Shown here: positions 19,231 to 28,706 of the stretch, one piece after another
Layout of the letters: each line of letters begins with the position of its first letter
Position numbering within the stretch: position 1 is the stretch's first letter
DNA from: Longilinea arvoryzae
Lineage (GTDB): Bacteria; Chloroflexota; Anaerolineae; Anaerolineales; Anaerolineaceae
Direction of reading: 5' to 3'
DNA length: 64,000 nucleotides
Assembly: GCF_001050235.1 (NCBI RefSeq)
Contig: NZ_DF967972.1
Location: forward strand, 806,171 to 870,170
Notes under the pieces: generated by a model
What the model was told of the DNA's origin: nothing
The model's input: the letters and a program-made list of their open reading frames with translations, nothing else
Databases searched by the model: none
Translations under genes and position numbers: made by a program

Positions 19231-19809
19231 TTGGAGACCAACTTGGAACTCGTAACCGATATCATCATTGCCGTTGGACTGGCAATGGATGCGTTTGCCG
19301 TGTCGCTGGGTGTGGGCACCAGCGGCCGCGCCCGGGATGGGCGGTCCGTTTTTCGCCTGGCGTTTCATTTTGGCTTTTTTCAGGGCGGAATGACCCTGTT
19401 GGGTTGGCTGCTGGGCAGCACCGTGGTCGATCTGATTGCCAACTTCGACCACTGGCTGGCGTTCGTCCTGCTGGCCTGGGTGGGTCTGCGCATGGTCAAG
19501 GAAGGTTTTGCCAGGGACGGCGAGGAAAGCGCCTTTGCGGCGGATCCATCGCGCGGGCGCGTTTTGATGGTCCTGTGCGTGGCCACCAGCATCGATGCGC
19601 TGGCGGTGGGCCTGAGCATGGCCATGCTCGACACGAACGTGATCTTTGCCAGCGTGGTCATCGCCGTCATCACATCCGCCCTTTCGCTGGTGGGCCTGCT
19701 GGGCGGCAACCGGTTGGGCAGCCACTTCGGCAAGCGCATGGAAGTGCTCGGCGGTCTGCTGCTGGTGGGTATTGGGGTGAGGATACTGGTGAGCCATCTG
19801 TTGGCATGA
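19231..19809 (+). CDS. mntP: Manganese efflux pump MntP (DUF204 family)
   Basis: Two-repeat DUF204 architecture with MDAFAVSLG and IDALAVGLS signature boxes; probable TTG start; a TATAAT-like -10 at about 19203-19211. Confidence 0.8.
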   Translation: METNLELVTDIIIAVGLAMDAFAVSLGVGTSGRARDGRSVFRLAFHFGFFQGGMTLLGWLLGSTVVDLIANFDHWLAFVLLAWVGLRMVKEGFARDGEESAFAADPSRGRVLMVLCVATSIDALAVGLSMAMLDTNVIFASVVIAVITSALSLVGLLGGNRLGSHFGKRMEVLGGLLLVGIGVRILVSHLLA

Positions 19810-19913: not shown

Positions 19914-20552
19914 ATGTCCGATCGTTTTTTCCGCCGAAAAGAAGACGAGCTCAAGGCGCGCAGTCAGAAACGGCTCCCGCCCGGCCAGGCGTTGACCAAC
20001 AAATTCCCGGTCCTTCATTATGGGCCGGTTCCGGCCTTCAACCCTGCCACCTGGGATTTTCGCATCTGGGGCGAAGTGGAAAGCCCCCTGCGTCTATCGT
20101 GGGAAGAATTCAACCAGCTCCCGCGCACGCGTCTGGTGATGGACATTCACTGCGTAACGCGCTGGAGCAAGCTGGATACCGCCTGGGAGGGCGTGTCGTT
20201 GCGCGACCTGGTCGAGCGCGGCATCCTCAAGCCGTTGCCGACCGCCCGTTTTGTTTTTCAGCATGCCGAATATGGGTTCACCGCCAACCTGCCGCTGGAA
20301 GTGTGCCTGCAGGAGAATTTCCTGCTGGCCACGCACTACGATGGCCAGCCGCTCAGCCCCGAACACGGCTACCCGCTGCGCGGCATCATCGGCGCCATTC
20401 CGAGACGGGATGACCTGAACGTGCCTTATTTTTGGAAGGGCGCCAAATGGCTGCGCGGCCTGGAATTCATGAGTCAGGACCGCCTGGGCTTCTGGGAACA
20501 ATCCGGTTATCACAACGACGCGGACGTGTGGAAAGAGCAGCGCTACGCCTGA
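19914..20552 (+). CDS. Molybdopterin-dependent oxidoreductase, sulfite-oxidase/MsrP(YedY)-like catalytic domain
   Basis: The HCVTRWS motif and overall length fit the sulfite oxidase family Mo-binding domain; no obvious signal peptide. Confidence 0.7.
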   Translation: MSDRFFRRKEDELKARSQKRLPPGQALTNKFPVLHYGPVPAFNPATWDFRIWGEVESPLRLSWEEFNQLPRTRLVMDIHCVTRWSKLDTAWEGVSLRDLVERGILKPLPTARFVFQHAEYGFTANLPLEVCLQENFLLATHYDGQPLSPEHGYPLRGIIGAIPRRDDLNVPYFWKGAKWLRGLEFMSQDRLGFWEQSGYHNDADVWKEQRYA

Positions 20553-20612
20553 CGGCGTCCGTTTTGCGAATCATCTTTTCGATCCAGGTCCCAAGCGCGA
20601 CCATCCAAACGA

Positions 20613-20692
20613 CGGGCAGGCACACTCTCCCAACCCCGTGCGGGGAGCGTGCCTGCCCGAAATGTTGGCGGGTCGCCTTTTTTCGATTCTTC
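20613..20692 (+). terminator. Rho-independent terminator (two hairpins; the second, ggcgggtcgcc, is followed by TTTTTT)
   Basis: gggcaggcac..ggagcgtgcctgccc stem-loop, then a GC hairpin plus a T-tract, right after the stop codon of the oxidoreductase gene. Confidence 0.6.
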
Positions 20693-20950
20693 TTCAATCA
20701 CCCCTATCATTTTTGATAAATGGTTTCAATAATTGCTAAAACCGGGTAATTATTACCGATCTATTCTTTTTCTGGCCTGATGCATAGTTGACAGGGGAAC
20801 CTCGAGATGTATAATGCTTAACATGCGATTGGCGGATCGCATTCCATTACCGGTTCGCCCGGTAATTTTTGTAAGTCAATCCCGATTTCTTCACAACATA
20901 ACTCAACACAACCAGTACGACCCAAAAGCAAGAGCCTTAGGAGGAGATGT

Positions 20951-22624
20951 ATGAAATCTCGGAAGTTTTTTGTATTCATTACCGCCATTGTGGCATTGGC
21001 GATGCTGCTGAGCGCTTGCGCCCAGGCAACGCCAGCCGCCACAGCGGAACCGACCGCTGCGCCGGCAGCGACCGAAGAACCCACCGTGGCGCCGGTCGAA
21101 CCGACGGCAGCCCCAGAGCATCCACTGTGGAGCAAGGAACTTAGAGAGGCCATTGCTGCCGCCATCGACCGCGAAGTAATCGTGGACCGCGTGTTCGAAG
21201 GCCGCAACACACCGGCCTATTCCATGGTCCCGTCCGATTATCCTTACGCCACGGAACCCTTCCTGGATAAATACGGCACCCGCGACCTGGAGTTGGCCAA
21301 GAAGCTGCTGACAGACCTGGGCTATACAGCCGACAAGCCTTTCAACTTCGAACTCTGGTACCCGCCCGAGCACTATGGCACCACCACCGCGGATGTCATG
21401 CAGGTCATCAAGGAACAGCTCGAAGAGACCGGCCTGATCAAGGTGGATCTCAAGTCGCAGAACTGGGCTGAATACGTCGACAGCTTCGTTGCCGGCAAGC
21501 TGCCCGCCTTCATCCTGGGCTGGTTCCCCGATTTCGTCGACCCCGACAACTGGCTGACCCCGTTCGCCTCCTGCCTGCAGTCGCCGGATAATGGCGTGAA
21601 CTACTGCAACCCGGCAATGGACGAACTGTTGACCAAGGCCGCCACCACCCCGGATGGACCCGATCGCGAGGCCCTCTACAAGCAAATTGGTGAGCTGTAC
21701 GCCGACGAAGTGCCCACCCTGCCGCTCTTCTGGGAGCCCGAGTTCATCACCTACCGCAATGGCGTGGAAGGCATCAAGATCAGCTCGGCCTTCGAGTTCA
21801 ATTACTACCCGCTGTCCTTCACCGCAGATGCCAAACCCGCTTCTGGCAAAACCGACACCATCATCATCGGTACTACGGATGAGGTCAACAGCCTGGATGC
21901 GCAGGACGCCTACGCCACTCACGACTGGGAAATCATCAAGAACACGGGTATGCCGCTGCTGACCTACGAGCCCGGCACCACGAACCTGATTCCCGCCGCC
22001 GCGGCCGATCTACCCAAGGTCAGCGAAGATGGCCTGACCTACACCTTCACCCTGAAAGACGGCCTCAAGTTCGCGGATGGCACCCCGGTCACTTCGGCCG
22101 ATTACCTCCGCGCCTGGCAGCGCATCGGCCTCGAGGGGCAGGTTTCCGGTCTGGTGCAGAACTACGTCAAAGACGTAACCGCGCCTGATGCGAAGACTGT
22201 GGTCTACACCCTGAAGAACAGCTACGGCTTCTTCCCCGCGCTGGCTGCCACGGCCCCGTTTGTGGTTACCAACCCGGCCGAATTCCCCACCGATAAGATC
22301 GTGGCCTTCCCCGAGAAGATCGATGGCATCGGCCCATACCGCATGGTTTCGCACACCCCCGGCGAGCAGTTGGTCCTGGAAGCCAATCCGAATTACATCG
22401 GCGAAGCCCCCAAGATCAAGAATGTGATCATCCGCTACTACGCTGACCCGGCAACCCTGGCCAACGCGGTCGAAAAGGGTGAGATCGACATCGCCTGGCG
22501 CACGGTCGGCCCGGTGGAAGCCGTTCGTCTGCAATCCGTAGCCGGCCTGACCGTCGAAACCGTCAACGCCCCCGCGCTGCGCTACCTGGTATTCAATGAC
22601 ACCTTCATGGTCGGGAGCAAATAA
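20951..22624 (+). CDS. ABC transporter substrate-binding lipoprotein, family 5 (Opp/Dpp/Nik type), apparently circularly permuted
   Basis: Lipobox (LLSAC) and a Thr/Pro/Ala linker. The segment order is reversed relative to the canonical DppA/OppA order: domain-II-type boxes come first (ELREAIAAAIDREVIV, LAKKLLTDLGY, GWFPDFVDPDNW) and N-terminal-type boxes come last (TYTFTLKDGLKFADGTPVTSADY, EANPNYIGEAPKIKNVIIRY, YLVFND). Confidence 0.85.
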   Translation: MKSRKFFVFITAIVALAMLLSACAQATPAATAEPTAAPAATEEPTVAPVEPTAAPEHPLWSKELREAIAAAIDREVIVDRVFEGRNTPAYSMVPSDYPYATEPFLDKYGTRDLELAKKLLTDLGYTADKPFNFELWYPPEHYGTTTADVMQVIKEQLEETGLIKVDLKSQNWAEYVDSFVAGKLPAFILGWFPDFVDPDNWLTPFASCLQSPDNGVNYCNPAMDELLTKAATTPDGPDREALYKQIGELYADEVPTLPLFWEPEFITYRNGVEGIKISSAFEFNYYPLSFTADAKPASGKTDTIIIGTTDEVNSLDAQDAYATHDWEIIKNTGMPLLTYEPGTTNLIPAAAADLPKVSEDGLTYTFTLKDGLKFADGTPVTSADYLRAWQRIGLEGQVSGLVQNYVKDVTAPDAKTVVYTLKNSYGFFPALAATAPFVVTNPAEFPTDKIVAFPEKIDGIGPYRMVSHTPGEQLVLEANPNYIGEAPKIKNVIIRYYADPATLANAVEKGEIDIAWRTVGPVEAVRLQSVAGLTVETVNAPALRYLVFNDTFMVGSK

Positions 22625-22852
22625 CGCTCCCTTAATCCGCCAACGCTGAATGAATCTGGGGGCGAGGGTAACCTTGCCCCCAGGAGTTATTGAAGGCTCC
22701 CCCCGTTATTTTACATAGAAGGTCCAAGGCTTTCGATGCCTTTTCTATTGCCAGAATCCGTCAATTCTGGCGAGAGAGCGTGTTAATCAAGACTTGAAAC
22801 TTCCAACGATATGCTATTTTAAGTAAAAAATCTCTCCTTTTGGAGACGCCGT

Positions 22853-23875
22853 ATGTCCGCATCTCTACGCAAATTTCTAATCACCCGTATTCTTCTCACC
22901 ATTCCCATGGTGTTGATCCTGATTACGCTGGTGTTTCTCATCATGCGCATCCTACCCGGCGATCCGATCCGCTCACAGCTTGGCCCGCGCGTCAGTGAAG
23001 AGCAGGCCAACCAGTTACGCGAACGCCTGGGCCTGAACCGCCCGTTGATCGTCCAGTATGGCGAATTCCTCTGGCAGATGGTCACGTTCGACTTCGGCAC
23101 CGCGCTCACCCAGGGTGAACGCCCGATCAAACAGGAACTGGCCGAAAAACTCCCCGCCACCATCGAGCTCTCCATCCCGGCGGTCATTTTCATGGCCGTT
23201 TTTGGGGTGGGTTCGGGCGCCTACGCCGCCAAGAACCGCAAAAAACCAGTCGATTATCTCCTGCGACTGTTCAGTATTGTCATTTACTCCATCCCGATCT
23301 TCTTTATGGGTTTGATGTTTCAAATTGCCTTTTCGGTAAAGCTGCCCGTGTTCCCGCTGGCCGGACGCATGGATACTTTGATGCAGGTGAACTTTGTTTC
23401 ACCCACTCATTTCTATGTCATCGATGCCATCCTCACCCGCAACTGGCCGGCATTGGGTTCGGCATTAATGCATTTGATCCTGCCCTCCTTTACACTGGGA
23501 CTGGCGCTGACCGGTGTCTTCATCCGCCTGACGCGCGTCAACATGATCGAAATCCTGCAGTCCGATTTCATCACCGCCGGGCGCGCGCGCGGCATCTCCG
23601 AAAGACGGCTGGTCTACAAACACGCCCTGCGCAATACGTTTATTCCCATCCTGACGCTGATCGGTCTGCAGTTCGCCGCCCTTATGGCGGGCGCGGTGCT
23701 GACCGAAACGACCTTCTCGTGGCCTGGCATTGGGCGTTACCTGGTGGAGCGCATCCAACTCCGCGATTACACCGCCGTGCAGTCTACGATCGGTGTGTTC
23801 GCCATGTTCGTCGCGGCCATCAGCCTGATCATGGATGTGTTGTATGCATTCGTCGATCCCCGCATCCGGTACTGA
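22853..23875 (+). CDS. ABC peptide/nickel transporter permease (DppB/OppB-like)
   Basis: BPD_transp_1-type permease with the EAA-like loop; first permease of the operon. Confidence 0.9.
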   Translation: MSASLRKFLITRILLTIPMVLILITLVFLIMRILPGDPIRSQLGPRVSEEQANQLRERLGLNRPLIVQYGEFLWQMVTFDFGTALTQGERPIKQELAEKLPATIELSIPAVIFMAVFGVGSGAYAAKNRKKPVDYLLRLFSIVIYSIPIFFMGLMFQIAFSVKLPVFPLAGRMDTLMQVNFVSPTHFYVIDAILTRNWPALGSALMHLILPSFTLGLALTGVFIRLTRVNMIEILQSDFITAGRARGISERRLVYKHALRNTFIPILTLIGLQFAALMAGAVLTETTFSWPGIGRYLVERIQLRDYTAVQSTIGVFAMFVAAISLIMDVLYAFVDPRIRY

Positions 23876-23900: not shown

Positions 23901-25151
23901 ATGGAAGAAAAACAAATAACTCCTGAAGCCGTTCCCCAATGGCAGTTGGACCTGGACAAGGTCGGTTTCGTGCGCAAGCTTTTCCTGGCGCGCAAGTGGT
24001 ACGGCGGTGATTGGTGGTTCGTGGCCGTCAGCGCCGTGCTGTTGTTGTTCATCATCCTGTTGGGTGTGGCGCCGAAATGGTTTGCCCCCTACGATCCGCG
24101 AGCCGAGGTCGGCCCGGCCCTGCTGTCTCCGGGTGAAATCCCTCTGGGCTATGTGCTGGTGGTCCAGGCTGACAGCACTGTGACTTCCTTGAAAGAAATC
24201 GGAACCAACAAGAACAATATCGGTTACGTGGTGGGCAGCGCTGCCAGCCAGGCGCTGCGGGATACCATCGACGAATTGAACGCCGCCGAAAAAGCGGCCG
24301 GCTCGGGCATCACCTACCAGCCCCGGCCGCGCCGGTATGAGACGAACGACCTGGGGTTGGCCGATCTCCAGGACGGCAAGCTGGACGCCTTCGTGGCCAG
24401 CATGGAAGAGCTGACGCCCCTGCTGCCGAAGTTCCCGGGCGTCAAAGTGGCCGGCAATCTGACCGGCAATACCAAAACGTTTACCCTGGGCACCAACCAA
24501 CTCGGCCAGGACGTGCTCAGTCGAATCATCTGGGGCACGCGCATCGCTTTGATCGTCGGCCTGAGTTCGGCCATCATCTCGTTCTTACTGGGCGTACCGC
24601 TGGGCCTCATATCCGGTTTCATCGGCGGACCGTTCGACCGCGTGCTGACCATGTTGATGGACAGCCTGTACTCCTTCCCGGGTCTGATCCTGGCGATTGC
24701 CATTGCCGCGGTGCTGGGGGCCGGCATTGGAAATATCATTGTGGCCATCGCGGTGTTGTACATTCCAACCTACTTCCGGATCGTGCGCGGGCAGACTCTT
24801 TCGGTCAAGAACGACCTGTACGTCGAAGCGGCCCGCAGCCTGGGCACGCCCCCCTGGCAGATCCTGACCAAATACATCCTGCCCAACGTCATCCCGTCGG
24901 TTGTGATCATCTTCTCGGTCAACGTGGCGGACGCCATCCTGACCGAGGCCGGCCTGAGCTTTTTGGGCCTGGGCCTGCCGCCGGACACACCCGACTGGGG
25001 CATCGACCTGTCGCGCGGGCAGGATTACATCCGCCGCGCCTGGTGGTTGATCACCTTCCCCGGCGTGATGGTCAGTCTGGTCACTTTATCATTCAGCATG
25101 CTGGGTGAGAGTCTCGCCGAGATTCTCAACCCGCGGCTGGCGGAGTTGTAA
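23901..25151 (+). CDS. ABC peptide/nickel transporter permease (DppC/OppC-like) with an approximately 150-aa extracytoplasmic insertion after TM1
   Basis: The C-terminal 250 aa are a canonical OppC-type permease. The insert (IGYVVGSAASQALRDT...DLQDGKLDAFVASMEEL) resembles one lobe of a type-2 periplasmic-binding fold. Confidence 0.85.
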   Translation: MEEKQITPEAVPQWQLDLDKVGFVRKLFLARKWYGGDWWFVAVSAVLLLFIILLGVAPKWFAPYDPRAEVGPALLSPGEIPLGYVLVVQADSTVTSLKEIGTNKNNIGYVVGSAASQALRDTIDELNAAEKAAGSGITYQPRPRRYETNDLGLADLQDGKLDAFVASMEELTPLLPKFPGVKVAGNLTGNTKTFTLGTNQLGQDVLSRIIWGTRIALIVGLSSAIISFLLGVPLGLISGFIGGPFDRVLTMLMDSLYSFPGLILAIAIAAVLGAGIGNIIVAIAVLYIPTYFRIVRGQTLSVKNDLYVEAARSLGTPPWQILTKYILPNVIPSVVIIFSVNVADAILTEAGLSFLGLGLPPDTPDWGIDLSRGQDYIRRAWWLITFPGVMVSLVTLSFSMLGESLAEILNPRLAEL

Positions 25152-25154
25152 ACG

Positions 25155-26168
25155 ATGGACCAATCTTTTCCTCTGGTACAAATCCGCGATCTATCGGTCA
25201 CCTATAACACCCGCCTGGGTCCGACCAGCGCGGTGGATAAGATCAGTTTCGACATTCGCCGCGGCGAAATCATGGGTCTGGTAGGCGAGAGCGGCTGCGG
25301 AAAGAGCACGCTCGGCAAAGCCCTGCTGCGCATGATCATGCCCCCTGGCTACATCAGCGGCGGCCAGATCATCTTCAACGGCGAAAACGTCATGAAGTTC
25401 GACGAAAAACGCCTGCGGGATTACCGCGGACGTCAGGTTAGCATGATCTTCCAGGACCCGATGACCTCGCTCAACCCGGTGCAAACCGTGGAGCAGCACC
25501 TGGAGGAAGCCATTCAGGTGCACGAGGCCGAGACCAAAACGCCCTATATCATCAAGCGCATCCAGACCCTGATCGAACGATTGGGCATCATGCAAAGCCG
25601 CCTCGACAGCTACCCGCACCAGCTTTCGGGCGGCATGCGCCAGCGCGTTATGGTCGGTCTGGGGCTGGTGTTGAACGCCGGGCTGATCATCGCCGATGAA
25701 GCCACCACCTCACTGGATGTAATCGTAGAGGCCAAGCTGGTCGACCAATTGCGCGAGATCCGCGACGAATTTGGGGTGAGCATCCTGGCGATCACGCACA
25801 ACATCGCCCTGGTGGCCGAAATCGCAGACCGCGTGGCGGTGATGTACGCCGGCAATCTGGTGGAACTGGGGGATGTCAACCGCATCTTCGACGCGCCCCT
25901 GCACCCCTACACCCAGGGCCTGCTGGCATCGGTGCCCACCACCGAAATCAACGCAAAGAAGGAGCTCTACAAAATGCCCGGCGAGCCGCCCAACCTGGCG
26001 CGCCCGCCGTCCGGCTGCCGTTTCCATCCCCGCTGCCCCGCGGCCATGCCCATTTGTTCGCGCTACCGGCCCGCGCTGGAAGAAGTTGCGCCCGGGCATT
26101 GGGTGCACTGCTGGTTGTATCAAGATCACCCGGAAAAGGTTGAAAAGACGATCAAGGTGGCCGCATGA
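25155..26168 (+). CDS. ABC transporter ATP-binding protein (DppD/OppD-like)
   Basis: Walker A (GESGCGKST), signature (LSGGMRQR), Walker B ([11 protein letters not shown]) and the C-terminal oligopeptide-ABC extension. Confidence 0.9.
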
Positions 26169-27184
26169 ACGTGGAAATGTCTGCTCATCAACAGGAAAAC
26201 CTGGTGGAAATCCAGGACCTGAAAAAATGGTTTCCGGTGCAAAAAAGCTTCCTCGACCAGATCCTGGCCGGGCGCAAGGATTTCGTTCGCGCGGTCGATG
26301 GGGTGACTTTTAACATCAAACGCGGCGAGGCATTTGGCCTGGCGGGTGAATCGGGCAGCGGGAAGACGACCATCGGCCGCCTGGCGATCGGCCTGGAAAC
26401 ACCCACCGAGGGCACGGTGCGCTTCGACGGCATCGATCTCAGCACGCAAAACGAACGCGAGATGCGCCACCTGCGCCGGCGCATGCAGGTGATCTTCCAG
26501 GATCCGATGGCCTCGCTCAACCCGCGCATGACCCTGGGCGACAGCGTGGTGCAGGGCCTGAAGATTCACTACCCCGAGGCGGCCGAAAAACACCGCGACA
26601 CACTCCTGGAAATCTTCGAACGCGTGGGACTCAGTCCGGCGCGCTACTTCATCAATAAATACCCGCACCAGATTTCGGGTGGGCAGCGCCAGCGCGTGGT
26701 CATCGCGCGCGCGTTGATCACGCGCCCCGATCTGGTGCTGGCCGACGAACCCATCGCCATGGCGGATGTGAGCGTGCGCGCGCTGCTGCTGGATTTGATG
26801 GTTCAACTGAAGCAGGAATTCAACCTGACCTATCTGTTCATCACGCACGATCTGGCGACGGCCAAATACATTTGCGACCGCATCGGCATCCTCTACCTGG
26901 GCCGGTTGGCCGAAGTGGGCGAGCTGAAAGAGGTCTACAGCTACCCGTTGCATCCCTACACCCAGGCCCTGATGGCGGCCGTGCCCGTCCCCGACCCGCA
27001 CAAACGCCGCACTCAGCCCATGCCGGCCGGTGAAATTCCGAACCCCATCAACCCGCCCTCGGGCTGCCGTTTTCACCCGCGCTGCCCCATCGCGCAGGCG
27101 ATCTGCTCGGTGGAGGAACCCGAACTGCGCGAACTGCGCCCCGGTCATCTGGTGGCGTGCCATTTCGCCGAGAAGTTCCTGTAG
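26165..27184 (+). CDS. ABC transporter ATP-binding protein (DppF/OppF-like)
   Basis: Walker A (GESGSGKTT), signature (ISGGQRQR), Walker B (LVLADEP); 4-nt overlap with the upstream gene. Confidence 0.9.
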   Translation: MNVEMSAHQQENLVEIQDLKKWFPVQKSFLDQILAGRKDFVRAVDGVTFNIKRGEAFGLAGESGSGKTTIGRLAIGLETPTEGTVRFDGIDLSTQNEREMRHLRRRMQVIFQDPMASLNPRMTLGDSVVQGLKIHYPEAAEKHRDTLLEIFERVGLSPARYFINKYPHQISGGQRQRVVIARALITRPDLVLADEPIAMADVSVRALLLDLMVQLKQEFNLTYLFITHDLATAKYICDRIGILYLGRLAEVGELKEVYSYPLHPYTQALMAAVPVPDPHKRRTQPMPAGEIPNPINPPSGCRFHPRCPIAQAICSVEEPELRELRPGHLVACHFAEKFL

Positions 27185-27216: not shown

Positions 27217-27258
27217 CAAAATCGGATGCTGCGTTTTTGACAGCATCCGATTTTTTAC
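27217..27258 (+). terminator. Rho-independent terminator after the Opp/Dpp operon
   Basis: Perfect 14-bp stem (aaaatcggatgctg / cagcatccgatttt) with a T-tract. Confidence 0.6.
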
Positions 27259-27563
27259 GCTGGGGTACGGTCGGGCCAACGCCTAGGGGGCACGGCTGTG
27301 TCTTTTTAACCCATGCGTATGGGCACGGCTATGTGGGGAATATACGTAATATCGTAACCCGGCAGGCGACTCGAACGGCGCTGGAAGGGTTGCATACTAA
27401 AATTGTTTATTGTTTTTTTCAGGAACCGCTGTCAGCGATCAATCCAACCAATTTCTTAAGGAATGGAACCGGCAGGGCCATTTGGACGTTTAATACAAAA
27501 AGGATACAATGGGTGGAATTCTGGCATTCTTCTGGCAATCGAGGATCAAATAGGTTGACATTC

Positions 27564-28706
27564 ATGCAACGAATTCGTTCGATCTTCCGGCGAGGCGGAG
27601 CGGTGTGGCTGGCGCTGCTGCTGGTTTTGCTGTTCACCTGGACCGCCAGCGCGGCCGGCGGCGGCACGACCATCTATCTGCCGTACGTGGCCAAACAGCC
27701 CACGCCTACCGCCACGCCTACACCCTTACCGCCGCTGCCGTCCGATTATTCGGTAAGTTATTACGTGCAGACCAACAGCAATCAGGCGGCCTACGACAAG
27801 GGTTGTGCGCTCGGCCAGACCGATTTGAACCTGGCCGGCGCTCAGGACCGGCTGGTCATCCTTGACTTCGGCCAGCCCTGGTATGACGATTACGGCACGC
27901 TGGGAACGTTGATTTTCCGCGTTCCGCCGAACACGAACTGGACGTTCATGTCGATCGGCGCCATTGGCGAATTCGCCAAGAATTTTGCCACCGGTTACTG
28001 GGTCTGCACGGGCAGCGATAAGGCCTCACACCTGACTCTGGGCATTGGCACCAGCAATTACCTGGGCACCGATCCGCCGGTGGACATGAAAGTGCCCGGC
28101 ACGGTTCGAAATCACGGCAGCCAGTGGGCTCAAATGGTGTTGAACGTGAATGCCTGGTTGTCCACCCAGCATTACGCCGCGCAGGTGACCGCCGCCGGCG
28201 CCAATGACATGGAACTCTCCTGGGCCACTTCCGCGCTGACCCGCGCCTGGGTGGACGGGTTCGATTCGGCGGATAACAATTCAGCTCTCTACTATAATTA
28301 CGGCGCCTGCGAGGGCTGCCCGCAGACTTATTACGCCGACATCGGTTCGTGGACTGGAGGGAAGAATTATTCCTGGCATGTCGAAGATGTCTGGTACATT
28401 TCCTGGGGCATCCCGCCGGCCTGGGTGGTGCCGGAGATCTATTTGAGCAATGAAGCCAACGCCAAGCAATGGCAGACCGTCAGCAAATACGCCAAGGTGC
28501 AAAAGGGAATGCGCATCGATTTCTCAGGCGTGATGACCCAATCCGGCGCCTGCCAGCAGCGCGGCGGCTGCACCGGCACCAGCAGTGATACGATGAACAC
28601 CCCACAGGAGGGTTGGAACCAGTTGTGGAAGTACACCTTCGCCGATCCCGACACGCGCATGAACCGCCTGCCCTGGATGACGGACATCCGCTATTGGACC
28701 AACTGA
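27564..28706 (+). CDS. Secreted hypothetical protein (signal peptide plus Pro/Thr linker; Trp-rich domain of unknown function)
   Basis: Start at the internal ATG giving a classic signal peptide (MQRIRSIFRRGGAVWLALLLVLLFTWTASAAG); PTPTATPTPLPP linker. Confidence 0.6.
   Translation: MQRIRSIFRRGGAVWLALLLVLLFTWTASAAGGGTTIYLPYVAKQPTPTATPTPLPPLPSDYSVSYYVQTNSNQAAYDKGCALGQTDLNLAGAQDRLVILDFGQPWYDDYGTLGTLIFRVPPNTNWTFMSIGAIGEFAKNFATGYWVCTGSDKASHLTLGIGTSNYLGTDPPVDMKVPGTVRNHGSQWAQMVLNVNAWLSTQHYAAQVTAAGANDMELSWATSALTRAWVDGFDSADNNSALYYNYGACEGCPQTYYADIGSWTGGKNYSWHVEDVWYISWGIPPAWVVPEIYLSNEANAKQWQTVSKYAKVQKGMRIDFSGVMTQSGACQQRGGCTGTSSDTMNTPQEGWNQLWKYTFADPDTRMNRLPWMTDIRYWTN

What the first reader, a model, noticed from the sequence alone, without database searches (positions are those of the whole stretch)
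20951..22624. Family-5 (Opp/Dpp) solute-binding lipoprotein appears circularly permuted
The sequence blocks of a canonical DppA/OppA fold appear in rotated order. After the lipoprotein signal and linker the protein starts with the block that is normally around residue 290 (KELREAIAAAIDREVIV, LAKKLLTDLGY, GWFPDFVDPDNW). It then continues with the blocks that normally form the N-terminal region (TYTFTLKDGLKFADGTPVTSADY, EANPNYIGEAPKIKNVIIRYYAD). It ends at YLVFND, which in canonical proteins directly precedes the block it begins with. The ORF is continuous, at 557 aa, and heads an otherwise standard five-gene Opp/Dpp operon, so this looks like a functional permutant rather than an assembly artefact.
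Basis: partly seen in the sequence, partly recalled or inferred. Interest (0 to 1): 0.7.

Follow-up and report, generated by a model that had tools for sequence, protein, structure and literature searches.

The report
Naturally circularly permuted peptide-type binding protein
The gene encodes a working-looking nutrient-capture protein of an ABC importer whose chain is cut and rejoined so that its two halves come in swapped order, and this rearrangement is conserved across many Anaerolineae and has arisen independently in other bacteria and archaea, apparently without prior description for this protein class.

Summary
The observation and the interpretation both hold. ORF 20951-22624 (557 aa, Longilinea arvoryzae) is a family-5 (cluster C) ABC substrate-binding lipoprotein with its halves in swapped order. 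Residues 58-290 match canonical residues ~286-518. A 12-residue junction follows. Residues 303-553 match canonical ~32-285.

It is not an artefact. At least 120 protein clusters and 80 species-level Chloroflexota genomes, including isolate genomes, carry the same order, and it heads the same five-gene operon in 65 of 65 testable loci.

The closest canonical-order relative (P0122, 59% identical after re-permutation) heads a homologous operon. Fold searches align the permuted model to solved structures over about 250 residues only. The canonical sister aligns over about 500.

The cut lies in the loop after the first inter-lobe crossover strand (RYLVFN). The same loop was cut independently in at least three other lineages, and two other cut sites occur in archaea.

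The likely origin is tandem duplication, in-frame fusion and loss of the outer halves. The function is probably peptide capture, since the Asp that anchors the peptide amino group is invariant.

The only published precedent found is a permuted cluster B protein (TpMglB-2). I rate it a new variant of a known kind, with interest 0.6.

The parts
20788..20815 (+). sigma-70-like promoter TTGACA-16-TATAAT (12 of 12), about 135 nt upstream of the start codon
   Evidence: a consensus scan only; not evidence of function
20939..20944 (+). Shine-Dalgarno sequence AGGAGG, 6 nt before the ATG
   Evidence: read from the sequence
20951..22624 (+). complete gene for the circularly permuted family-5 (cluster C) substrate-binding lipoprotein, 557 aa plus stop
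20951..21019 (+). lipoprotein signal peptide, residues 1-23, with lipobox LLSAC; Cys23 is the predicted lipid attachment site
   Evidence: Read from the sequence. Cys23 is conserved in at least 90% of the family alignment. A lipobox is present in 46 of 48 aligned members.
21020..21121 (+). Pro/Ala/Thr/Glu-rich flexible tether, residues 24-57
   Evidence: pLDDT is below 50 for residues 19-55. The composition is read.
21122..21820 (+). block equivalent to the canonical C-terminal half, residues 58-290. It comprises the C-lobe (domain III), the second inter-lobe crossover strand (model strand 256-269) and the last N-lobe segment. It contains W191 and D194, which align with OppA W416 and D419.
   Evidence: the role of Asp-419 is from PMC3173086
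21821..21856 (+). new junction TADAKPASGKTD, residues 291-302, joining the old C-terminus to the old N-terminus
   Evidence: pLDDT is 94-97 over residues 281-300
21857..22597 (+). block equivalent to the canonical N-terminal half, residues 303-549. It comprises N-lobe domains I and II and ends with the first crossover strand LRYLVFN (model strand 533-548).
22598..22624 (+). short C-terminal tail DTFMVGSK plus the stop codon; the chain ends in the loop where canonical proteins continue into the first C-lobe helix
   Evidence: pLDDT is about 69 for residues 551-557
22656..22683 (+). GC-rich hairpin (11 of 12 bp stem, GTAA loop) just after the SBP stop codon, with no T-run; possibly an intra-operon attenuator or mRNA stabiliser
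   Evidence: Read from the sequence. The function is inferred.
22853..23875 (+). permease 1 (OppB/DppB type, 340 aa)
   Evidence: BPD_transp_1_N plus BPD_transp_1
23901..25151 (+). permease 2 (OppC/DppC type, 416 aa) with an extracytoplasmic insert of about 130 aa
25155..26168 (+). ATPase 1 (ABC_tran plus oligo_HPY)
26165..27184 (+). ATPase 2 (ABC_tran plus oligo_HPY)

Best explanation
The gene encodes a functional, lipid-anchored cluster C (family 5, Opp/Dpp/Nik type) substrate-binding protein of an ABC importer whose chain is a true circular permutant.

Shown: after the lipid-modified Cys23 and a disordered tether of about 34 residues, the chain starts at the first helix of the C-lobe (canonical residue 286 in the sister P0122). 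It runs through the C-lobe and returns to the N-lobe through the second crossover strand. A 12-residue junction bridges the old C- and N-termini. The chain then runs through the whole N-lobe and stops a few residues after the first crossover strand (RYLVFN).

Inferred: the protein still works as a Venus-flytrap receptor. It closes its two lobes on a ligand that carries a free alpha-amino group, most likely a peptide anchored by the invariant Asp194, which aligns with OppA Asp419. It then delivers the ligand to the OppBCDF-type translocator encoded downstream.

Inferred consequences of the permutation: (i) the C-lobe is covalently joined to the N-lobe by one crossover instead of two, and the first crossover strand is now a free C-terminal end; (ii) both termini, and therefore the membrane tether, sit in the hinge region.

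Inferred origin: tandem duplication and in-frame head-to-tail fusion of a canonical gene, followed by in-frame loss of the first N-half (keeping the signal peptide) and loss of the last C-half. This happened once at the base of an Anaerolineae clade. The same loop was cut independently in at least three other lineages. I think this site is hit repeatedly mainly because it is structurally permissive: it is a surface loop at the hinge, and the native termini lie close together. A benefit for tether geometry or hinge mechanics is possible but not shown.
For: Rotated order. After re-permutation the query aligns with P0122 over 494 residues at 59% identity, and the two independent AlphaFold models agree in 96% of secondary-structure states.

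Real and under constraint: more than 120 clusters share the order. 80 of 114 confirmed genome loci are listed, all Chloroflexota, including isolates. The family alignment averages 69% column identity with about 170 invariant positions. 65 of 65 loci keep the five-gene operon.

Same transporter: the P0122 operon has the same five genes, including the long second permease, and its partners are 60-68% identical to the window's.

Ligand anchor: query W191 and D194 align with OppA W416 and D419 and are invariant. The role of Asp-419 is given in PMC3173086.

Independent recurrences: P0172 is closest to canonical P0181 (64/58% identity in the two halves), P0199 to P0204 (61/61%) and P0206 to P0242 (64/67%), against 29-43% to the query clade. 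Bootstrap support is 59-60 of 60. The cut loop is the same in all of them. P0199 and P0206 are each found in two assemblies and each heads an Opp operon.

Other cut sites: 22 clusters have the order C2-N1-N2-C1 and one has N2-C-N1, in Asgard archaea and Thermoplasmata, also in Opp operons.

Plausible intermediate: P0233 is a head-to-tail NCNC fusion whose internal junction is of the same kind. The junctions are only 0-12 residues long, so the native termini must lie close together.

Against: No coordinates were available, so no permutation-aware superposition (CE-CP or TM-align -cp) was done. Equivalence of the whole fold rests on pTM, on matches to each half separately and on secondary-structure agreement.

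There is no experimental evidence for binding, ligand identity or transport. All NCBIfam equivalog scores are far below their cut-offs, so the substrate is unknown.

Monophyly of the query's permuted clade has only 39 of 60 bootstrap support; the clade plus P0122 has 57 of 60. A reversion, or two events inside the clade, is therefore not excluded.

No remnants of a second gene copy remain in the flanks, so the duplication route is inferred from analogy and from P0233, not from this locus.

The adaptive idea is weak. Canonical sisters use the same translocator. The tether is long and disordered, so geometry may not be limiting. Anchoring type does not track chain order across lineages.

The mapping of the Mtb DppA hinge contacts onto the RYLVFN strand is my inference from residue spacing. 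It was not aligned.
Confidence: 0.85

Rival explanations
1. Assembly join, frameshift or chimeric contig: the rotated order is an artefact of this one assembly.
For: None found.
Against: The same order is found in more than 120 independent protein clusters and in 80 species-level genomes, including a complete isolate genome. The ORF is continuous and GC content is even. The order is collinear at 63-83% identity throughout.
Confidence: 0.01
2. A decaying relic: two partial SBP fragments fused into a non-functional protein, or into one with an unrelated role.
For: The protein scores far below every NCBIfam equivalog cut-off. No experiment exists.
Against: Conservation is strong, with about 170 invariant positions including the ligand-anchoring Asp and Trp. 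It always sits first in a complete transporter operon (65 of 65 loci). The window holds no other family-5 SBP that could serve this transporter. A promoter, a ribosome-binding site and a lipobox are all intact. The compact model is confident.
Confidence: 0.03
3. The permutation is adaptive. Moving both termini to the hinge puts the lipid or transmembrane tether at the face that sits on the translocator, and/or leaving a single covalent crossover changes the open-closed equilibrium. On this view selection, not mere tolerance, explains why the same loop was hit repeatedly.
For: The same loop was cut in at least four lineages. All permutants are membrane-tethered: by a lipobox, by an N-terminal transmembrane helix, or, in P0199, by a C-terminal transmembrane anchor kept at the new C-terminus. 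In Mtb DppABCD the hinge region contacts DppB and DppC (PMC10954201). A similar tethering idea was proposed for the permuted cluster B protein TpMglB-2 (PMC4990184). The four closest canonical relatives lack a lipobox and a long linker, whereas the permuted clade has both.
Against: The canonical sister works with a homologous translocator. More distant canonical relatives are also lipoproteins with long linkers. The tether is 25-50 disordered residues long, so its attachment point may not matter. Other cut sites away from this loop also exist. Nothing was measured.
Confidence: 0.3
4. The origin was not duplication and truncation. Instead the gene split at the hinge loop into two genes whose products reassembled, and the two genes later fused in the opposite order.
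For: The cut sits exactly at a domain boundary, where a split protein could plausibly reassemble. No remnants of a duplication are left.
Against: All half-only proteins in the hit lists look like contig-end fragments or frameshifted calls, not signal-peptide-bearing split genes. A head-to-tail fusion does exist (P0233). The N-lobe is built from segments of both halves, so a split protein would have to assemble outside the cell.
Confidence: 0.1

Closest known systems
Canonical cluster C / Pfam SBP_bac_5 substrate-binding proteins (E. coli YliB/GsiB 1UQW, OppA, DppA, NikA, MppA)
   Different: The chain order is rotated. The termini lie in the hinge loop instead of in the N-lobe, and the old termini are fused by a 12-residue junction. 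No solved structure aligns over more than about half of the model. The protein scores far below all NCBIfam equivalog cut-offs.
P0122, the closest canonical-order relative (519 aa; assembly GCA_900175145.1, locus L081)
   Same: It is 59% identical over 494 residues once the query is re-permuted. The two predicted structures agree in 96% of secondary-structure states. The operon has the same five genes, including a 419-aa second permease, and the partners are 60-68% identical.
   Different: It has the canonical N-to-C order and aligns full length to PDB structures. It has a plain signal peptide with no lipobox and no long linker.
TpMglB-2 (Tp0684) of Treponema pallidum, proposed 'Cluster Bc' (PMC4990184)
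   Same: It is a natural circular permutant of an ABC substrate-binding lipoprotein. The permuted topology is conserved in a clade, and the protein sits in an operon with its transporter. It still binds ligand and changes conformation.
   Different: It has a different fold class (type I / cluster B, sugar-binding). Only about 100 residues are moved, and this creates a fourth hinge crossover. The moved part has only about 13% identity to the canonical protein, so its authors could not exclude acquisition from another gene. Here the two halves are 56-64% identical to a canonical sister, the cut is clean, and the event recurs independently.
Engineered circular permutants of binding proteins used in biosensors
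   Same: They show that bilobed binding proteins tolerate new termini and rejoined old termini.
   Different: They are artificial, are mostly cluster B, D or F scaffolds, and are not coupled to a transporter.

Membership tests
Pfam PF00496 SBP_bac_5 / cluster C substrate-binding proteins | Sequence match above the curated Pfam threshold | tested here: met
   265.5 bits against a cut-off of 32.4, E=1e-78
Pfam PF00496 SBP_bac_5 / cluster C substrate-binding proteins | One collinear match to the family profile or structures (canonical chain order) | tested here: not met
   There are two stretches in swapped order. Structural aligners cover only about 250 of about 500 residues. The canonical sister control covers about 500.
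Pfam PF00496 SBP_bac_5 / cluster C substrate-binding proteins | Bilobed three-domain fold | tested here: inconclusive
Pfam PF00496 SBP_bac_5 / cluster C substrate-binding proteins | Encoded with OppB/OppC-type permeases and two oligo_HPY ATPases | tested here: met
   conserved in 65 of 65 related loci
Pfam PF00496 SBP_bac_5 / cluster C substrate-binding proteins | Export signal and membrane tether | tested here: met
   The lipobox LLSAC is read from the sequence. Cys23 is at least 90% conserved. A lipobox is present in 46 of 48 members.
Peptide-binding OppA/DppA/MppA subgroup | Asp that salt-bridges the peptide alpha-ammonium group (OppA Asp-419, MppA Asp-417) | tested here: met
   Query D194 aligns with OppA D419 and W191 with W416. 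Both are invariant. The role is given in PMC3173086.
Peptide-binding OppA/DppA/MppA subgroup | Score above the NCBIfam equivalog cut-off (OppA, DppA, NikA, GsiB, SapA and others) | tested here: not met
   The best hit is nikA at 114 bits against a cut-off of 393; OppA scores 105 against 947.
Peptide-binding OppA/DppA/MppA subgroup | Demonstrated peptide binding and transport | not testable with these tools
   This needs ITC or DSF with peptide libraries, plus uptake assays.
Circular permutant (general definition) | Two homologous segments in swapped order relative to a close homologue, each present once, in one continuous chain | tested here: met
   there is no second copy in the gene or its flanks
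TpMglB-2-like 'Cluster Bc' permuted binding proteins | Type I / cluster B sugar-binding fold with the first three N-lobe strands moved to the C-terminus | tested here: not met
   The query is SBP_bac_5 (cluster C) and its cut site is different.

The most novel reading that the evidence does not exclude
Cluster C substrate-binding proteins have a permutation hot-spot in the hinge loop, after the first crossover strand. It has been hit independently at least four times in bacteria and archaea, and two further cut sites are fixed in Asgard and Thermoplasmata archaea. The novel reading is that this recurrence reflects selection. Moving the membrane tether to the translocator-facing hinge, and leaving one covalent crossover, would change docking or open-closed dynamics. 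That would define a functionally distinct subclass (a 'Cluster Cc') of tethered binding proteins.
Probability: 0.3. Interest if true: 0.75.

Novelty: new variant of a known kind. Interest (0 to 1): 0.6.

Why it matters
Substrate-binding proteins are classified largely by their hinge connectivity, and their hinge mechanics set ligand affinity and transport rate. Here nature supplies matched pairs that differ mainly in chain connectivity at the hinge. Each pair is a permuted protein and a canonical sister at about 60% identity, and each heads an Opp-type transporter operon (shown to be homologous, gene for gene, for the query and P0122). At least four independent replicates exist, plus two alternative cut sites.

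This gives a ready-made system for three questions. One is how crossover number and tether position affect Venus-flytrap dynamics and docking to the translocator. Another is how secreted proteins undergo circular permutation while keeping their export signal.

The third is practical. These proteins are currently annotated as ordinary family-5 SBPs, and profile or structure searches cover only half of each, which can mislead domain-architecture pipelines. The natural cut sites also point to permissive sites for engineering biosensors on the peptide-binding scaffold.

Tried and rejected
(1) Assembly artefact or frameshift: rejected on conservation.

(2) A hidden second copy or decayed remnants in the flanks 20553-20950 and 22625-22852: only noise was found, with the best E about 0.25 in a search space of about 600 bp.

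(3) Another family-5 SBP in the 64-kb window that might be the real partner of the transporter: none.

(4) A split-gene origin: the half-only hits are contig-end fragments or frameshifted calls.

(7) A riboswitch or known RNA in the 5' leader: no Rfam match at E<=1.

(8) A Pfam identity for the insert in the second permease: none, even at E<=10.

(9) Literature: nine full-text searches, eight of them on circular permutation and binding proteins and one on the organism. They found no description of a natural permutation in family-5 / cluster C SBPs, only TpMglB-2 and engineered cases. The library covers open-access papers only.

(10) A simple link between chain order and anchoring type: not consistent across lineages.

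(11) Placing the cut from remembered OppA/DppA domain boundaries: I could not verify the boundaries from the papers read. I therefore describe the cut only relative to the model's secondary structure and to the 'hinge region' wording of PMC10954201.
Full report
**Observation.** The window holds an uninterrupted 557-codon ORF at 20951-22624 (+). An AGGAGG ribosome-binding site lies 6 nt upstream of the start. A perfect TTGACA-16-TATAAT promoter-like site lies at 20788-20815.

Pfam SBP_bac_5 matches at E=1e-78, but in two stretches. phmmer against all PDB sequences pairs query 57-280 with OppA/DppA residues ~274-494, and query 302-551 with canonical ~13-266. So the rotated order is real and far beyond chance.

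**Not an artefact.** The exact protein is on record from Longilinea arvoryzae. The 120 best-scoring protein clusters (65-84% identity) all match collinearly over 89-100% of the query. A scan of one genome per species found 114 confirmed loci. The 80 returned are all Chloroflexota, mostly Anaerolineae, and include Pelolinea submarina MO-CFX1 (complete genome) and Ornatilinea apprima P3M-1. All have the same order.

In all 65 loci with at least 4.6 kb downstream, the gene heads the same five-gene operon: two permeases and two oligo_HPY ATPases. The family alignment has 69% mean column identity and about 170 invariant positions. GC content is even across the gene.

**Structure.** AlphaFold2 with 48 family sequences gives pLDDT 85.2 and pTM 0.82. 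Only the signal peptide and the tether (residues 19-55) are disordered. The new junction is modelled at pLDDT 94-97.

As a control I modelled the closest canonical-order relative, P0122, with the same pipeline (pLDDT 93.6). It aligns full length (489-551 columns, TMq 0.73-0.83, E about 1e-45).

Rotating the query sequence in silico (291-557 followed by 56-290) gives one global alignment with P0122: 494 residues at 59% identity. The DSSP strings of the two independent models agree at 96% of aligned positions. In the native order only 290 residues align.

Whole-fold equivalence is therefore strongly indicated but not directly shown.

**Anatomy of the cut and the junction.**
- The break falls between P0122 residues 285 and 286 (…RYIVLNHAM | APHDNRAINQAIAAAIDRE…).
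- The query ends …RYLVFNDTFMVGSK. After its linker it begins …PLWSKELREAIAAAIDRE.
- In the models, the cut follows the long strand 533-548 (P0122 265-280) and precedes the first helix of the C-terminal half.
- The old termini are joined by TADAKPASGKTD (residues 291-302), between …FEFNYYPLSF (the canonical C-terminus) and TIIIGTTDE (the canonical first strand).
- The C-lobe therefore remains covalently attached to the N-lobe only through the second long strand (256-269).
- The first crossover strand is now the free C-terminal end, with at most 9 residues beyond it (pLDDT about 69).
- The lipid anchor (Cys23) and its tether of about 34 residues now attach at the hinge-side loop of the C-lobe, instead of at the first strand of the N-lobe.

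**Evolution.** HMMER against 1.84 billion representatives and a half-by-half mapping show both canonical and permuted relatives near the query. In a neighbour-joining tree of the two halves concatenated in canonical order (103 sequences), the query's clade groups with canonical P0122 (57 of 60 bootstraps) and then with P0126. Monophyly of the permuted clade itself gets 39 of 60.

P0122 heads an operon with the same five genes, including a 419-aa second permease. Its partner proteins are 60-68% identical to the window's. So the transporter stayed the same while the SBP chain order changed.

Other proteins with the same C-then-N order are each most similar to a different canonical protein:

| Permuted protein | Canonical partner | Identity, N-half / C-half | Bootstrap |
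|---|---|---|---|
| P0172 | P0181 | 64 / 58% | 60/60 |
| P0199 | P0204 | 61 / 61% | 59/60 |
| P0206 | P0242 | 64 / 67% | 60/60 |

These three are only 29-43% identical to the query clade. P0205 and P0132 are weaker candidates for further events. In every case the cut is in the same loop and the junction adds only 0-12 residues.

P0199 and P0206 each occur in two assemblies, and each heads an Opp operon with a normal-length OppC. P0199 keeps a C-terminal transmembrane anchor at its new C-terminus and has a permuted relative at 67% identity.

Among the 101 relatives of P0199, mostly Asgard archaea, 73 are canonical. Another 22 have a different permutation (C2-N1-N2-C1, cut before the strand equivalent to query 131-137), two have the C-then-N order, one is N2-C-N1, and three are N-terminally truncated fragments. 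Representatives of the two other types also head Opp operons, in Thermoplasmata and Heimdallarchaeota genomes.

P0233 (1202 aa) is a head-to-tail NCNC fusion with the same kind of internal junction. It shows that the classical duplication intermediate can exist. No remnant of a second copy is left in this window, and half-only hits are fragments.

**Function and mechanism.** Shown: family membership, operon partners, export and lipidation signals, and conservation. Query W191 and D194 align with OppA W416 and D419. They are invariant in the family. Asp-419 is the residue that salt-bridges the peptide alpha-ammonium group (PMC3173086).

Inferred: the protein captures peptides, or another ligand with a free amino group, between its lobes and delivers them to the permeases. 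The substrate itself is unknown, because all NCBIfam equivalog scores are far below their cut-offs.

On why the hinge loop is hit repeatedly, my preferred reading (about 0.55) is structural permissiveness. The site is a surface loop at a domain boundary, and the native termini are close enough to be joined by a few residues.

[quoted passage not shown] It also draws on the tethering idea proposed for TpMglB-2 (PMC4990184). The spacing of the Mtb contact residues (D259, L261, N264) fits the RYLVFN strand, but I did not align the sequences, so this is inference only.

**Comparison with known systems and novelty.** By sequence and fold the protein belongs with cluster C / SBP_bac_5 binding proteins, but it fails the canonical chain-order criterion. 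No solved structure shares its order.

The only natural permutation of an ABC binding protein that I found in the literature is TpMglB-2. That is a cluster B sugar-binding lipoprotein, for which a 'Cluster Bc' subclass was proposed. It moves a smaller and poorly conserved segment and adds a hinge crossover.

Nine full-text searches, eight on the permutation question and one on the organism, found nothing on family-5 permutants. Subscription-only papers were not searchable. Public records annotate these proteins as ordinary family-5 SBPs.

I therefore rate this a new variant of a known kind. It is robustly real, and it is more interesting than a single odd gene because of the clade-wide conservation, the matched canonical sister and the independent recurrences.

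**Limits.** There are no experiments and no permutation-aware superposition. The trees are neighbour-joining trees on a sample of about 100 sequences. The independent lineages are metagenome-derived, with few members each. The origin route and any selective advantage are inferred.

Noticed in passing
window 23901-25151 (insert roughly 24123-24515, residues ~75-205): The OppC/DppC-type second permease is 416 aa long because of an extracytoplasmic insert of about 130 aa between TM1 and the conserved core. Motifs such as GKLDAFV are reminiscent of a class II binding-protein lobe, but there is no Pfam match even at E<=10. The insert is conserved in 65 of 65 permuted-SBP operons and in the canonical sister's operon (419 aa). 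It is absent from the operons of the independently permuted SBPs (OppC of 291-319 aa).
   Followed up: partly
relatives P0089, P0113 (about 800 aa, permuted order) and P0133 (800 aa, canonical order; P0259, P0260, P0264, P0268 and P0270 have a similar length and layout but were not scanned): Some close relatives carry a complete family-3 (amino-acid type, PF00497) binding domain fused in front of the family-5 protein. This was confirmed for one permuted-order and one canonical-order example, so double-receptor fusions exist in this neighbourhood.
   Followed up: partly
relative P0121 (1036 aa): One family-5 SBP appears to be inserted inside another: N, C(5-70), a full N-C copy, then C(74-225). 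The insertion point coincides with the second natural cut site seen in archaeal permutants.
   Followed up: no
relatives P0190, P0193, P0214, P0258 and 22 clusters among P0277-P0373; loci L086-L088: Thermoplasmata and Asgard archaea (Hod-, Heimdall-, Prometh- and Hermod-archaeota) carry family-5 SBPs permuted at two other positions (C2-N1-N2-C1 and N2-C-N1). They also head Opp operons and are anchored by terminal transmembrane helices.
   Followed up: partly
window 20846-20876: A terminator-like hairpin (ATTACCGG-TTCGC-CCGGTAAT followed by TTTTTG) sits in the 5' leader between the promoter-like site and the start codon, so a leader attenuator is possible. Rfam has no match at E<=1.
   Followed up: partly
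window 22656-22683: A GC-rich hairpin (11 of 12 bp) lies directly after the SBP stop codon and has no T-run. Its position fits the intra-operon elements that raise SBP expression relative to the permeases, but this was not tested.
   Followed up: no
window 27237-28706: A 489-aa ORF directly downstream of the operon has a hydrophobic N-terminal region, a Thr/Pro-rich stretch and no Pfam match. Its function is unknown.
   Followed up: no
window 19914-20552 and 19231-19809: The genes upstream of the operon are a molybdopterin-oxidoreductase-domain protein (PF00174) and a small multi-pass membrane protein. Neither has an evident link to the transporter.
   Followed up: no
query residue W60 (window 21128-21130): A Trp at the very start of the folded part (PLW[ST]KE) is invariant in the core of the query's permuted clade (alignment A1). 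It is absent from canonical relatives and from the independently permuted lineages. It may cap the new terminus.
   Followed up: no
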